A stretch of 64,000 nucleotides of DNA, taken from the NCBI RefSeq assembly GCF_009914755.1, contig NC_060925.1; one strand, given 5' to 3'. This DNA is from the human T2T-CHM13v2.0 reference genome, Homo sapiens. The notes under the pieces were generated by a model, which saw nothing but the letters and a program-made list of their open reading frames with translations, was not told where the DNA came from and made no database searches. The position numbers and the translations under genes were made by a program. This document shows positions 33,052-37,230 of this stretch, one piece after another (position 1 is the stretch's first letter; each line of letters starts with the position of its first letter).

Positions 33052-34328
33052 TTACTTCACTAAAAGAAATAAGTACACTGTCACCAGAGGAAAAGTTGCT
33101 GATGTTATTGACTATTTGCTTTTAGAAATCTCCCTCCCTAGACATTCAGGGCACTGGCTTTTCTGGTTTTCTGAACCCTGTTCCTTTTGCTTCTTCATTA
33201 CCTTGTTCTTATCCATTAAATGTTTGTGCTCCCTGGAGCACTGTTTTTCGCCCTCTTTTGAGCCACATCACAGCTCTCCCTAGGGAATTTCACTGTCTGT
33301 ATTCGCCTCCACTGCCACTGTCTTCATTAGCTTGCTGATGAATCTCACCATCATTCCCTTAGCTCCACCCAACCCTGACATTCAGGCTCATGTTTCTAGC
33401 TATCCTTTGTATGTTCTCCTTGGAGATATTCTACAGGTACTTTCAGCTCACCTTGTTGACAGAAATACGTAGCAACCATGTACATCCCAAATACCCACGC
33501 TAGAAACTCCCTGTCCCTTGTTCTGACCTCATTTCAACTCAGTCACCCAAGCCAACCTCTGAGTTGCCTTTCACCTGTCTATTCCTCCCATTTCCTCTGC
33601 TACCCTGTAGTTGAAGGCCATGTTATCTCTCACCTGGGCTTCTGAAGTAGTTTCTGAATACGTTTTCTTGCCTTTATTCTCTCCCCATCTCATTCACCCA
33701 TGATATTACTACATCTTTGATTATAAATGCAAATATTCTAACAATCTCACCTGCTTACAATGTCTAATATTTTTTCATCATCCGCAGAATAAACTGCAAA
33801 CTCTTTTACATGACTTCCATAGCTCTCTACAGCCTAGACTTTACATCTTTTTATAGCCTGGCCTCCCCACAAGCATCTAGGCCTAGTCACACCAAATTCT
33901 CCTTATTTCCTGAAAATGTTGTACTTATTATTGCTTCCATACAGTTACACACCCTTTTGCCTGGAATGCCCTTTTCTACAACTGGTGATTGTCCAATGTT
34001 ATTTAAAACTGTGTCTTAGTGACCCTTTCATGATTCCTTTAGGCAAATGGTCTCTAAGTTTTATTAGTTTTATGTATCACATTTTATTGTAATTTTTTTT
34101 ACACATATCTCACCTGAATAGATTGTGGGTTTTTCTAGGTGGGTCTGAGCTTTATTCAAAAGTGTTTATTAAATTAGATGAGAAAAGGAGGAACATTCTT
34201 CATTTTTTCTCCTGCTTTAAGCACTAAACCAAGAGTTCTATAAATGCAATAAGCAAAAAAGTGAAAAATGTACTCAGAAGACTATACTGGATCAGTTAGT
34301 GTAGAATACTGTTATATTAATTTTTCAT

Positions 34329-34838
34329 TGTATTAGGGTTCTCTAGAGGGATGGAACTAATGGAATATATATGTATGTATATATATTCCAACCCAAAGTG
34401 TCTTGGTGGCAATCTTAATATATATATATTGGCAATCTTTATATATATATAAAGGAGAGTTTGTTAAGTATTAATTCACATGATCACGAGGTCCCACAAT
34501 AGGCTGTCTGCAGGCTGAGGAGCAAGGAGAGCCAGTCTTGAGTTCCAAAACCGAAGAACTTGGGGTTCGATATTTGAGGGCAGGAAACATCCAGCACGGG
34601 AAAAAGATGTAGGCTGGGAGGCTAGGCCAGTCTCGCTTTTTCATGTTTTTCTGCCTGCTTTATATTTGCTGACAGATGATCAAATGGTGTCCATCCAGAT
34701 TAAGGGTGGGTCTGCCTTCCCCAGCCCACTGACTCAAATGTTAATCTCCTTTGGCAACACCTTCACAGACACACCCAAGATCAATACTTTGTATCCTTCA
34801 ATTCAATCAAGTTGACACACTCAGTTTTAACCACCACA
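34329..34838 (-). mobile_element. MLT2A-type LTR (HERV-L 3' LTR)
   Basis: The minus strand reads TGTGGTGGTTAAAACTGAGTG...TCAACTTGATTG...AGAGAACCCTAATACA, with an internal (TA)n. It is preceded by a PPT-like AAGGGGTAGATT. Confidence 0.88.
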
Positions 34839-36301
34839 AATCTACCCCTTGTCAACTTGAACCCATACACATCTCCTGAGATCACACATAATCTTCAAAT
34901 AAAGACAATAATTAGGTCATAATTACACCTGATGTAGTACAACTATTCTTCGTACATCCGGAAACACACCAGTCCCCAACTGAAACACTCTTACATAAAG
35001 TTAACGATACTTAAATGCTGATGTGAAGTCAATAAATCTTATGTCACATGATAAAGGAGAAAGGAAATAAAATGAAGATATTTTCTTAGTACAAGTGTGT
35101 GCAAGCACAGACATGTTTTTAATAAAAGAAGGAGGAAATACTGAGGACAATTACAGTCCTCATTTCTGCAGCTGGTCACATGGTAGTAGCTGGTATTGAT
35201 GACTACCTTCTTCTACCCATTTTGTATTCCTTTTGCCTTCAGCAAACACCTCAGCAGGTTGTGTTTTTTTTTTTCCTGATGGAGAGGCCCAAACCTTCAT
35301 TCATCCAGGCGGGACCATTTGTAGTCCCGCCTGGATTGGGCTGTTGTAGTTGCCCATTGACCTTAATCACAGGGCATGGTAATACTAAGAGACGCCCTAA
35401 TGGATCTCCTGTATTCCATGAATACTCTTTCTTACCTCCGTTCTGGAGTAGTAGACTGATTTCATCTTGATAGCCTGGGTCTTGATAGCCTTGATGTCCC
35501 AGCCAACACTGTAACGCCTTTCTTAGCCTGTTTACTTAAAGGTAGGAACCCAAAGTGTCCTGGTGGCAATCTTAACTACCAGTTTAATGGAATTGTTGTT
35601 GTGTCTTCTGGTGGCAGCGTTCCTCCCTCTGGAACTAAGACCTCTAGGCCAGCAGAACTTAATGTTGCGGGAACAGGAAGCAAACATTTTGCTAGTGGAT
35701 CACTAGGGGTGATGGTGAGTGGTACCACTTCCATTTCCACCCCTTGATTCCTGGACCTGTGAATCCTGGCTATGGGAGAAACAGTACCACATATTGGACG
35801 CTGATTCAGAGCATACACAGCCTTCTTGAGAACTTTGCCCCAACCCTGCAAAGTATTCTCACCTAGTTGGCATTGTAATTGTGACTGCAAAAGGCCATTC
35901 CACCGTTCTGCTTCAGGATGTTGGGGAACATGGTAAGACCAGTGAATTCCATGAGCATGAGCCCACTGCTGCACTTCTTTAGCCATAAAGTGAATGCCTT
36001 GGTCAGAGGCAATGCTGTGTGGAATACCATGACAGTGGATAAGGCATTCCATGAGTCCGCGGATGGTAGTCTTGGCAGAACCATTGCATGCAGGATAGGC
36101 AAACCCATATCCAGAGTAAGTGTTTATTCCAGTAAAGACAAACATCTGCCCTTTTCACAATGGAAGAAGTCCAACATAATCAACCTGCCACCAAGTAGCT
36201 GGCTGATCACCCTGAGGAATAGTGCCATATCAAAGGCGCAGTGTTGGTTTCTGCTGCTGGCAAATTGGGCACTCTGCGGTGGCAGTAGCCAGGTCAGCTT
36301 T
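34839..36301 (-). mobile_element. HERV-L internal 3' part: degenerate integrase and dUTPase
   Basis: ORFs give DLATATAECPICQQ (Zn-binding CxxC), TGINTYSG..SDQG..ERWNG (integrase core) and GLEVLVPEGGTLPPEDTTTIPLNW (dUTPase). The frames are shifted and the first catalytic D is replaced by N. Confidence 0.9.
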
Positions 36302-36541
36302 CCACCGGCCCATCTTGTTTTCTGCACTGGGAAGGTGGGGCATGAGCACAAATGTTAGGACCTGAAAGGTGGTGAACTCTGCCTGGGCAGGGCAAAGCCA
36401 GAGGAAACTCTGGTGGAGGTCCGTAGCAGTCCTGATGTGCAAATCGGTCATCCAACCTGGGTGTAGGGGCGAAAGACTAATTGAACCATCTAGTAGCTGG
36501 TTCCCTCCAAAGTTTCCCTCGGGATAGCTGGCACTCTCGCA
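36302..36541 (+). pseudogene. 28S (LSU) rRNA fragment of about 240 nt, CpG-decayed
   Basis: gttaggacctgaaag.tggtgaact.tgcctgggcaggg...ccagaggaaactctggtggagg...gtaggggcgaaagactaattgaaccatctagtagctggttccctcc matches the conserved LSU domain II core. Confidence 0.93.
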
Positions 36542-36544
36542 AAA

Positions 36545-36562
36545 ACCCCACTCTTGGTACCA
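36545..36562 (-). promoter_or_regulatory. Retroviral primer-binding site complementary to the tRNA-Leu(TAA) 3' end
   Basis: Minus strand TGGTACCAAGAGTGGGGT, 6 nt downstream of the THE1 LTR end. One mismatch to the recalled tRNA end ACCCCACTCCTGGTACCA. Confidence 0.75.
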
Positions 36563-36568
36563 ATTTAC

Positions 36569-36918
36569 TGTATTAGTCCATTTTCACGCTGCTGATAAAG
36601 ATATCCCCGAGACCGGGAAGAAAAGAGGTTTAATTGGACTTACAGTTCCATATGGCTGGGGAGGCCTCAGAATTATGGTGGGAGGCAAAAGGCACTTCTT
36701 TCATGGTGGTGGCAAGAGAAAATTAGGAAGAAGCAAAAGCAGAACCCCTGAGAAACCCATCAGATCTCATGAGACTTATTCACTATCATGAGAATAGCAC
36801 AGGAAAGACTGGCCCCCATGATACAGTTACCCCACTGGGTCCCTCCCACAACACATGGGAATTCTGGGAGATACAATTCAAGTTGAGATTTGGGTGGGGA
36901 CACTACCAAACCATATCA
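36569..36918 (-). mobile_element. THE1-family MaLR LTR (5' LTR)
   Basis: Minus strand TGATATGGTTTGG...GCAGCGTGAAAATGGACTAATACA, 350 bp, followed by the THE1-int start GTAAATTGGTACCA. Confidence 0.9.
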
Positions 36919-37230
36919 TTCATCAAAAGGTGTTGGTGGGGTAGAGGGTAGTTAGGATGATCCATGATCTCCATCATGATGATGATGGTATTGATGATGT
37001 AAGTCACTGAAAATATTTGGTGTTATAAGAATAATTTCTTCCTGATTGTCAGTTTTGAGTTGTTTTGCTATTAGGAGGCAAAGTAGGGGGGCATATACCC
37101 ACTTAAAATATTTTAATTCTGGCTAGTGGAAATGACAGTAATGCCTTCTTCATAATTAAAATGTCACTCTGAAATGGTCCCAAATTAAGAAGGATCTCTT
37201 TTTGGTGTGTTCTGCAAGATTCTGATCACC

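What the first reader, a model, noticed from the sequence alone, without database searches (positions are those of the whole stretch)
34324..36923. Single-integration chimeric provirus with two different LTRs: THE1 5' LTR, PBS, 28S rRNA, HERV-L int/dUTPase, MLT2A 3' LTR
Seen: on the - strand the order is THE1 LTR (36918-36569), PBS, rRNA piece, HERV-L integrase and dUTPase, PPT, MLT2A LTR (34838-34329). The outer TG...CA termini are flanked by the same 5 bp, TTCAT, at 34324-34328 and 36919-36923. Known: ERV-L and MaLR elements make 5-bp TSDs, normal reverse transcription gives identical LTRs, and MaLRs lack pol and are presumed to be mobilised by ERV-L. Inference: this was one integrase-mediated insertion of a hybrid cDNA, which would be physical evidence that THE1 and HERV-L RNAs were co-packaged and reverse-transcribed together. 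A repeat annotator would list four unrelated hits. I do not know whether this has been described.
Basis: partly seen in the sequence, partly recalled or inferred. Interest (0 to 1): 0.9.

Follow-up and report, generated by a model that had tools for sequence, protein, structure and literature searches.

The report
Hybrid THE1–HERV-L provirus, one integration
A 2.6-kb retroviral fossil in a NOTCH2NLC intron starts with the end-repeat of one element family and finishes with that of another, which shows that the two were copied into DNA together in one virus-like particle.

Summary
On the minus strand the order is: ATGAA, a 350-bp THE1-type LTR, a 6-nt spacer, an 18-nt primer-binding site (PBS), 240 nt of antisense 28S rRNA, HERV-L integrase/dUTPase, an MLT2A-type LTR, ATGAA.

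One integration of a hybrid cDNA is strongly favoured.
- The identical 5-mer has a chance rate of about 0.002.
- Both families make 5-bp duplications.
- All three parts show the same 4-5% non-CpG divergence.
- The THE1 part stops 0-7 nt after the PBS.

Both families carry the same 18-nt PBS and the same LTR termini. A THE1 plus-strand strong-stop DNA could therefore transfer onto HERV-L minus-strand DNA. Here it seems first to have copied rRNA.

The element is not alone. I found 18 dispersed loci with the reciprocal junction: MLT2-type 5' LTR, PBS, MaLR internal region. Fifteen of them show a THE1/MST-type 3' LTR. Of 12 elements whose ends could be scored, 10 have outer 5-mers matching at 4 or 5 of 5 positions (P about 3e-16). 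A further THE1/HERV-L recombinant provirus was also found.

No paper describing this turned up. The orthologous empty site could not be tested.

The parts
36919..36923 (-). 5' copy of the 5-bp target-site duplication (ATGAA on the minus strand)
36569..36918 (-). LTR-A: complete 350-bp MaLR LTR of THE1 type (family name recalled), TG...CA, in the 5' LTR position
   Evidence: 25 genomic copies are 82-90% identical, and 16 of 25 start at 36918; the family's full elements are 2.0-2.3 kb long.
36563..36568 (-). spacer GTAAAT, of the type found in the LTR-A family
36545..36562 (-). 18-nt primer-binding site TGGTACCAAGAGTGGGGT. It differs at 1 of 18 positions from the PBS that follows HERV-L 5' LTRs.
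36542..36544 (-). ambiguous T run at junction 1, between the unambiguous PBS and the unambiguous rRNA
36302..36541 (+). 240 nt of 28S rRNA, sense on the plus strand and therefore antisense to the element
   Evidence: ungapped, 212 of 240 identical to rDNA locus L006.
34839..36301 (-). HERV-L internal region from the middle of the integrase zinc finger to the 3' end. It holds the integrase core, a degenerate dUTPase, a non-coding tail and a purine-rich tract at 34841-34850. The frame is broken by in-frame stops and at least one frameshift.
34329..34838 (-). LTR-B: HERV-L LTR of MLT2A type (name recalled), in the 3' LTR position
34388..34452 (-). extra patch in the TA run of LTR-B, just after its AATAAA. 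It holds a 10-nt and then a 29-nt copy (34390-34418) of dUTPase segment 35547-35575.
   Evidence: repeats D2, D4; absent from 6 of 6 other copies.
34324..34328 (-). 3' copy of the 5-bp target-site duplication (ATGAA)

Best explanation
The 2.6 kb is a single integration of a hybrid cDNA made inside one ERV-L particle that held a THE1 RNA, a HERV-L RNA and 28S rRNA.

Shown:
- the structure;
- the 5-bp duplication;
- the PBS and LTR termini shared by the two families;
- the equal age of the three parts;
- the recurrence of hetero-LTR relatives.

Inferred:
1. Both RNAs were primed by the same tRNA and both gave minus-strand DNA.
2. A THE1 plus-strand strong-stop DNA (LTR + spacer + 18-nt PBS copied from the primer) failed to land on its own PBS complement.
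3. Its 3' end was extended for 240 nt on a 28S rRNA fragment. This is why the rRNA is antisense.
4. At the end of that fragment it joined, without homology, to a HERV-L minus-strand DNA that ended in the integrase region.
5. Completion of both strands gave a linear DNA with a THE1 LTR on the left and an MLT2A LTR on the right.
6. The ERV-L integrase accepted both ends, because the two families have near-identical termini, and made the 5-bp duplication.
For: 1. The outer 5-mers are identical. The chance rate is 0.0015-0.0019. T at -3 and A at +3 of the rebuilt target fit the MaLR/MLT2 site motif described in a passage of PMC2836564.

2. Both families make 5-bp duplications. LTR-A full-length elements: 4 of 5 perfect, with a sixth, L014, unclear. 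LTR-B solo LTRs: 4 of 5 perfect and 1 with a single mismatch.

3. THE1 homology ends 0-7 nt after the PBS. A random breakpoint would fall there with P of about 0.004-0.005.

4. HERV-L 5' LTRs are followed by the same 18-mer. The window's PBS matches it at 17 of 18 positions. Both LTR types start TG(T)GATGGTT and end GACTAATACA.

5. Terminal-branch divergence of non-CpG type is 4.2% for LTR-A, 4.8% for the HERV-L part and 4.2% for the rRNA (10 of 240).

6. The window's PBS lacks the two extra bases that 20 of 25 THE1-type copies carry. This fits a PBS copied from the tRNA.

7. Eighteen loci carry the reciprocal junction: LTR-B, PBS, MaLR internal region. Fifteen of them have an LTR-A-like 3' LTR. 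Of 12 that could be scored, 4 have 5/5 and 6 have 4/5 outer repeats, P = 3e-16.

8. HERV-L copies exist in which the PBS 3' end is fused to an internal pol site sharing GAGTGGGGTC. There are 11 such loci.

9. HIV-1 defective proviruses show the same layout, LTR-PBS-antisense primer RNA-downstream site (PMC12657518, passages).
Against: - No outgroup or empty site was examined, and the left flank is single-copy. The single insertion therefore rests on internal evidence alone.
- Junction 1 is not clean. A run of T separates the PBS from the rRNA. THE1-internal homology may run up to 7 nt past the PBS, with a possible 3-nt TGC overlap. The donor may therefore not have been a pure strong-stop DNA.
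- Junction 2 has no microhomology. That suits end-joining as well as an end-to-end template jump.
- The orientation of the rRNA is only one bit of evidence.
- No simple reciprocal element (THE1 LTR, PBS, complete HERV-L) was found, because it could not be searched for here.
- In the test for a THE1-type transfer to the pol hot spot, 0 of 40 scored hits began at the PBS without an LTR-B end.
- The tRNA identity (Leu-TAA) comes from a mouse preprint and from recall. It was not tested here.
Confidence: 0.7

Rival explanations
1. Single integration, but the hybrid was made at the DNA level. Two incomplete linear cDNAs were held in one pre-integration complex: a THE1 LTR-PBS piece and a HERV-L piece running from integrase to the 3' LTR. 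Each contributed one end to a concerted integration, or they were end-joined first. Host end-joining closed the inner ends and captured an rRNA cDNA as filler.
For: Junction 2 is blunt. Junction 1 has a few unassignable T. Both features are typical of end-joining. The duplication, equal ages and shared termini fit this rival as well as the best explanation.
Against: It needs a free rRNA cDNA. It does not predict the rRNA orientation. It does not explain why the 18 reciprocal elements cross over exactly within the shared LTR-end/PBS zone, which points to homology-guided strand transfer.
Confidence: 0.13
2. A simple hetero-LTR provirus (THE1 LTR, PBS, complete HERV-L, MLT2A LTR) integrated first. 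Later a genomic deletion removed the stretch from leader to integrase and captured an rRNA-derived filler.
For: Simple PBS crossovers are the common form in the reciprocal class. Later deletions are frequent in old proviruses. One example is the 357-nt loss in the contig 10 (C10) compound.
Against: The deletion would have to start 0-7 nt after the PBS by chance, P of about 0.005. The rRNA has the same divergence as the flanking parts, although the error is about +/-1.3%. There is no poly(A) and no second duplication that would mark an L1-driven rRNA insertion.
Confidence: 0.1
3. Two independent insertions, a THE1 element and a HERV-L provirus, lay in the same orientation. A deletion then joined them, and the two outer 5-mers match by chance.
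For: Deletions between neighbouring repeats are common. The first stage scanned many windows, so a rare coincidence could be picked up.
Against: The chance of a 5-mer match is 0.0015-0.0019. That must be multiplied by a breakpoint at the PBS, about 0.005. The three parts have equal ages. The same kind of hetero-LTR element with duplications recurs, with 10 of 12 scored, which chance cannot give.
Confidence: 0.03

Closest known systems
HIV-1 defective proviruses made by aberrant second-strand (plus-strand) transfer (PMC12657518; passages read)
   Same: A 5' LTR and intact PBS are followed at once by an antisense copy of an RNA that RT read by mistake, then by a downstream position of the genome, with a large internal deletion.
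   Different: In HIV the extra RNA is the tRNA primer itself (7-54 nt), and donor and acceptor are the same virus. Here it is 240 nt of 28S rRNA. The acceptor is another element family, so the two LTRs differ completely.
Three-LTR complex retrotransposons with flanking duplications in grasses, ascribed to abnormal template switching (Sabot and Schulman 2007, PMC1950507; first of two parts of the text read)
   Same: Two co-packaged RNAs give one fused cDNA that integrates once. The evidence is a 5-bp duplication around the whole complex. The contig 10 (C10) locus found here has that three-LTR layout.
   Different: The plant cases join members of one family, and their outer LTRs are alike. Here an autonomous and a non-autonomous family are joined, and the outer LTRs are unrelated apart from about 10 nt at each end.
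LTR-mediated retroposition of host RNAs by template switching (Tan et al. 2016, PMC5131818; abstract and passages)
   Same: A host RNA present in the particle is copied into the interior of an LTR element and replaces part of its coding region.
   Different: In that model the switch happens during minus-strand synthesis. The captured RNA is therefore sense and is bounded by microsimilarity (median 6 bp). Here the rRNA is antisense and one junction is blunt, which points to the plus-strand phase.
Intermolecular second-strand transfer inferred in HIV-1 recombinant forms (PMC5651808; abstract only)
   Same: Plus-strand strong-stop DNA can land on the other minus-strand DNA of a heterozygous particle.
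   Different: That work concerns closely related genomes and rests on polymorphism patterns. It gives no structurally hetero-LTR proviruses.

Membership tests
MaLR, THE1-type element (LTR-A) | LTR of about 350 bp bounded by TG...CA, belonging to a dispersed high-copy family | tested here: met
   25 of 25 fetched copies align over the whole LTR at 82-90% identity, out of 3671 first-look candidates.
MaLR, THE1-type element (LTR-A) | Family members are short elements (about 2.3 kb) whose interior is too small to hold pol | tested here: met
   five full elements of 2016-2290 bp with two 350-bp LTRs. The window copy keeps only the LTR, spacer and PBS.
MaLR, THE1-type element (LTR-A) | Assignment to the named Dfam/Repbase subfamily (THE1A-D) | not testable with these tools
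   No repeat library is on hand. The name is recalled.
HERV-L (ERV-L, class III) | Retroviral integrase in pol | tested here: met
   Pfam rve, 45.5 bits, E 9.6e-12.
HERV-L (ERV-L, class III) | dUTPase domain downstream of integrase | tested here: inconclusive
   PF00692 at 18.7 bits, E 0.0015, below the 22-bit cut-off. The frame is broken. The position is the expected one.
HERV-L (ERV-L, class III) | Colinear with the family from integrase to the 3' LTR, with an MLT2-type LTR | tested here: met
   single alignments of 1.7-1.8 kb at 81-86% identity in most of 25 copies. Searches cover the LTR.
HERV-L and MaLR | 5-bp target-site duplication | tested here: met
   4 of 5 and 4 of 5 perfect. A passage in PMC2836564 agrees.
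HERV-L and MaLR | PBS complementary to tRNA-Leu | not tested
   The same 18-mer follows both LTR types. The tRNA itself was not fetched. A mouse preprint names Leu-TAA for ERVL and ERVL-MaLR.
Canonical provirus | Two LTRs of the same sequence | tested here: not met
   One search finds no long direct repeat between the two ends. In relatives the 5' and 3' LTRs share only the 10-nt terminus.
Product of aberrant plus-strand strong-stop transfer | Complete 5' LTR and PBS followed directly by foreign or downstream sequence | tested here: met
   family homology ends 0-7 nt after the PBS.
L1-mediated chimeric retrocopy | Poly(A) tail, 7-20 bp duplication, start at a transcription start site | tested here: not met
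   full U3 at the left end, U5 at the right end, a 5-bp duplication and no poly(A). Only A4-5 lies next to the rRNA.
28S rRNA | Match to the LSU rRNA model and to the genome's own rDNA | tested here: met

The most novel reading that the evidence does not exclude
Hetero-LTR elements are a recurrent by-product of MaLR mobilisation. Plus-strand strong-stop DNAs of ERV-L and MaLR swap between the two minus-strand DNAs of mixed particles, because both end in the same tRNA-copied PBS. Each such fossil would then record which ERV-L LTR subfamily was in the same particle as which MaLR subfamily. That would give a direct, datable pairing of helper and parasite across primate, and perhaps eutherian, history. 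The window's element adds proof that 28S rRNA fragments sat in those particles and served as RT templates.
Probability: 0.6. Interest if true: 0.75.

Novelty: new variant of a known kind. Interest (0 to 1): 0.7.

Why it matters
MaLRs such as THE1 and MST are the most abundant LTR elements of the human genome. They have no pol. That ERV-L moved them is generally stated as an inference (passages in PMC11319637 and PMC5538554).

A provirus with a THE1 LTR at one end and a HERV-L LTR at the other, inside one 5-bp duplication, is physical evidence. So are at least 18 reciprocal elements. They show that the two kinds of RNA were reverse-transcribed in the same complex and integrated by the same integrase.

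The finding also shows that two minus-strand DNAs co-existed in these particles. For exogenous retroviruses this is considered unusual (abstract of PMC5651808).

Hetero-LTR elements cannot collapse to solo LTRs, so they should persist as full-length fossils.

For annotation, repeat maskers will list such elements as unrelated neighbouring hits.

Tried and rejected
- In-silico empty site. The left flank (36914-37200) occurs only in the 5 paralogues, so no older repeat spans the site. The search with the right flank did not complete and I did not repeat it.
- rRNA as the primer. Rejected: rDNA identity stops at 36541-36544, and the 18-mer is not rRNA-like.
- rRNA captured during minus-strand synthesis. 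Rejected on orientation.
- L1-driven rRNA insertion. Rejected: no poly(A) and no second duplication.
- A HERV-L or THE1 variant family that already carried the rRNA. None of the 35 + 35 non-paralogous hits crosses either junction. Full-length hits to both junctions are the 5 paralogues only, among 40 scored of 2086 candidates.
- Retrotransposed copy of a chimeric transcript. Rejected: it would give the same hybrid U3-R-U5 LTR at both ends.
- THE1-type transfer to the pol hot spot. 0 of 40 scored hits.
- L014 as a check of duplication length. Unclear.
- Pairing of LTR ages within hybrids. Only Spearman 0.51, P = 0.053, n = 15.
- Smit 1993 could not be read.
- Ten paper searches found no description of a THE1/HERV-L hetero-LTR element. 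Subscription journals and supplements were not seen.
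Full report
**What is there**

Read on the minus strand, the stretch 36923-34324 has these parts in order.
- ATGAA.
- A 350-bp LTR, 36918-36569, here called LTR-A. It is of THE1 type. This name, like MLT2A and MST below, is recalled, because no repeat library was on hand.
- The spacer GTAAAT.
- An 18-nt TGG... primer-binding site (PBS), 36562-36545.
- A short run of T.
- 240 nt of 28S rRNA, 36541-36302.
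- HERV-L pol from the middle of the integrase zinc finger, starting at 36301, through a decayed dUTPase, a non-coding tail and a purine-rich tract.
- A 510-bp LTR, 34838-34329, here called LTR-B. It is of MLT2A type.
- ATGAA.

The boundaries were set with the genome's own copies.
- Of 25 LTR-A copies, 16 begin to align exactly at 36918, and all stop at 36555-36541.
- Of 25 HERV-L copies, 19 begin at 36301 or 36302 and 6 at 36296-36298. All carry ordinary pol upstream of that point.
- An rDNA unit aligns without gaps over 36541-36302, with 212 of 240 positions identical.
- Rfam places the rRNA on the plus strand, which is antisense to the element.
- Counted from the start of the Rfam match, the segment lies roughly 1.45-1.7 kb into the 28S gene.
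- In 6 of 6 other LTR-B copies, homology ends at the same terminal CA or TA.
- Pfam finds the integrase core at 45.5 bits. The dUTPase match is only 18.7 bits, under the 22-bit cut-off.
- The pol frame is broken by in-frame stops and at least one shift.

**One insertion or two**

- An identical 5-mer at two places occurs at a rate of 0.0015-0.0019 in this DNA.
- Five base pairs is the right length for both families. Four of 5 full-length LTR-A elements (2.0-2.3 kb) have perfect 5-bp repeats, and a sixth element was unclear. Four of 5 solo LTR-B copies are perfect and one has a single mismatch. A passage in PMC2836564 says the same and gives a T at -3 and an A at +3 around the duplication. The target rebuilt from the two flanks has both.
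- The three parts are equally old. By a star-tree estimate from pairwise distances, with no consensus built, the window's terminal branch in non-CpG-type changes is 4.2% for LTR-A and 4.8% for the HERV-L part. The rRNA differs from rDNA by 10 such changes in 240 nt, or 4.2%, plus 18 CpG transitions.
- The THE1 part ends 0-7 nt after the PBS. A random deletion breakpoint would fall there with a probability of about 0.005.
- I could not test an empty site. No other primate genome is on hand, and the left flank is single-copy.

**Why two different LTRs are possible**

Ordinary reverse transcription copies the 5' LTR from the 3' LTR by way of the plus-strand strong-stop DNA. That DNA ends in 18 nt copied from the tRNA primer. 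It lands on the PBS complement of the minus strand.

- HERV-L 5' LTRs in this genome are followed by GATTT and then TGGTACCAGGAGTGGGGT. The window's THE1-side PBS differs from this at one position.
- Both LTR types begin TG(T)GATGGTT and end GACTAATACA.

A strong-stop DNA of either family can therefore land on the other family's minus strand, and one integrase can take both ends. A preprint reports Leu-TAA sites in ERVL and ERVL-MaLR of the mouse (passages). I did not check the tRNA itself.

**The specific path here (inferred)**

1. The THE1 strong-stop DNA did not land on a PBS complement.
2. Its 3' end was extended on a 28S rRNA fragment. This gives antisense rRNA. A capture during minus-strand synthesis, as in LTR-mediated retroposition (PMC5131818), would have given sense rRNA.
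3. After 240 nt it met, without homology, a HERV-L minus strand that ended in the integrase region.

Some facts bear on this path.
- Junction 1 is ambiguous. A T run lies between PBS and rRNA. THE1-internal homology may reach 7 nt beyond the PBS, with a 3-nt overlap with the rRNA.
- The window's PBS lacks two bases that 20 of 25 THE1-type copies carry (4 lack them, 1 is unclear). This fits a PBS templated by the tRNA.
- HIV-1 reservoirs hold the same layout, with tRNA read-through of 7-54 nt between the PBS and a downstream site (PMC12657518, passages).

**It is not alone**

While checking the HERV-L PBS I met a locus where an LTR-B end, GATTT and the PBS run into a THE1 interior.
- A query across that junction, and a second query from an older copy, gave 18 dispersed loci among the 40 hits scored in each search, out of 2947 and 3423 first-look candidates. 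The number is therefore a lower bound.
- I fetched all 18.
- Fifteen have an LTR-A-like 3' LTR after a MaLR interior of about 1.5 kb. Three are truncated.
- Within an element the two LTRs share only the 10-nt terminus.
- Of 12 elements whose ends could be read, the outer 5-mers match 5/5 in 4, 4/5 in 6 and not at all in 2. Given chance rates of 0.0014 and 0.0185, this has P = 2e-9 and P = 3e-16.
- The crossover lies in the PBS in 16 and between the LTR end and the spacer in 2.
- Identities to the window's LTRs range from 65 to 87%. These are separate events of different ages, not one amplified family. A retrotransposed copy would carry the same hybrid LTR at both ends.
- The ages of the two LTRs co-vary only weakly: Spearman 0.51, P = 0.053, n = 15.

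Related irregular elements are listed under Noticed in passing.
- A three-LTR compound, of the kind described in grasses (PMC1950507).
- A recombinant provirus whose interior switches from THE1 to HERV-L.
- Eleven HERV-L copies with the PBS fused to a pol site that shares 10 nt with it.

**What remains open**

- The simple reciprocal form of the window's element (THE1 LTR, PBS, whole HERV-L) was not sought, because that needs a composite probe.
- None of 40 scored hits showed a THE1-type transfer to the pol hot spot.
- No copy of the window's own junctions exists outside the five paralogues on contig C1, among the hits that were scored.

**Literature**

- Ten searches found no description of THE1/HERV-L hetero-LTR elements.
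- I read passages of several papers. PMC10735291, a 2023 study of primate MaLR history, does not contain the words HERVL, MLT2 or hybrid.
- Smit 1993 was not held.
- Subscription journals and supplements were not seen.

**Verdict**

The element belongs to a recurrent class that had not been noticed in the papers I could search. Its rRNA insert and its orientation (MaLR LTR first) are unique so far.

Noticed in passing
window 34388-34452 (source 35547-35575): The TA run just after the AATAAA of the 3' LTR holds a 10-nt and then a 29-nt direct copy (28 of 29 identical) of the element's own dUTPase region, which lies 1157 nt upstream. The patch is absent from 6 of 6 other LTR copies. All five paralogues align at 99-100% across the whole LTR, so they appear to carry it. 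It looks like a short template-switch excursion, during reverse transcription or later replication.
   Followed up: partly
G000 junction loci: C10:134447224, C3:19868707, C23:149710815, C4:133685571, C11:21648040, C8:126940463, C7:31090827, C11:74948212, C21:23759410, C23:69382076, C17:34905484, C15:98550703, C7:149018829, C1:49381032, C3:147254752, C21:26653739, C6:130783235, C12:82260251: These 18 dispersed loci carry an MLT2-type 5' LTR, PBS and MaLR interior. Fifteen of them have a THE1/MST-type 3' LTR. The spacer is of the HERV-L type in 16 and of the THE1 type in 2. Outer 5-mers are 5/5 in 4, 4/5 in 6 and unmatched in 2 of the 12 that could be scored.
   Followed up: yes
G000:C10:134445389-134454520 (loci L103 + L104, minus strand): Three-LTR compound: MLT2-type LTR, PBS, HERV-L gag/pol (with an unrelated insert of about 1 kb), MLT2-type LTR lacking its first 45 nt, PBS, THE1 interior, THE1 LTR. 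The outer 5-mers are CTACC and CTTCC (4 of 5) if the LTR is read as starting CATGATGG.
   Followed up: partly
G000:C3:147251015-147255352 (loci L124 + L118, minus strand): Recombinant provirus of 4.3 kb with MLT2-type LTRs at both ends (85.7% alike). Its interior is PBS, THE1 interior, THE1 LTR nt 1-160, then HERV-L pol/IN/dUTPase. The flanks are AAGAA and AAGTA (4 of 5). It fits a minus-strand copy-choice switch from HERV-L RNA onto the 3' end of a THE1 RNA.
   Followed up: partly
L064 (G000:C2:230603160-230603260) and 10 further loci: HERV-L copies in which the PBS is fused to an internal pol site about 1.1 kb upstream of the integrase zinc finger. PBS end and pol site share GAGTGGGGTC, the signature of a mis-targeted plus-strand transfer. 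I could not tell whether the 11 copies are one amplified deletion variant or repeated events.
   Followed up: partly
L100 (G000:C19:15838170-15838334): A HERV-L LTR end and PBS are followed by a second copy of the U5 end and PBS. This is another PBS-anchored irregularity.
   Followed up: no
G000:C1 at 145.277, 146.176, 120.802 and 120.014 Mb: Four paralogous copies of the whole element, 98.8-99.5% identical over about 2.2 kb. They are presumably in NOTCH2 and the other NOTCH2NL genes (names inferred). The element is therefore older than these segmental duplications.
   Followed up: partly
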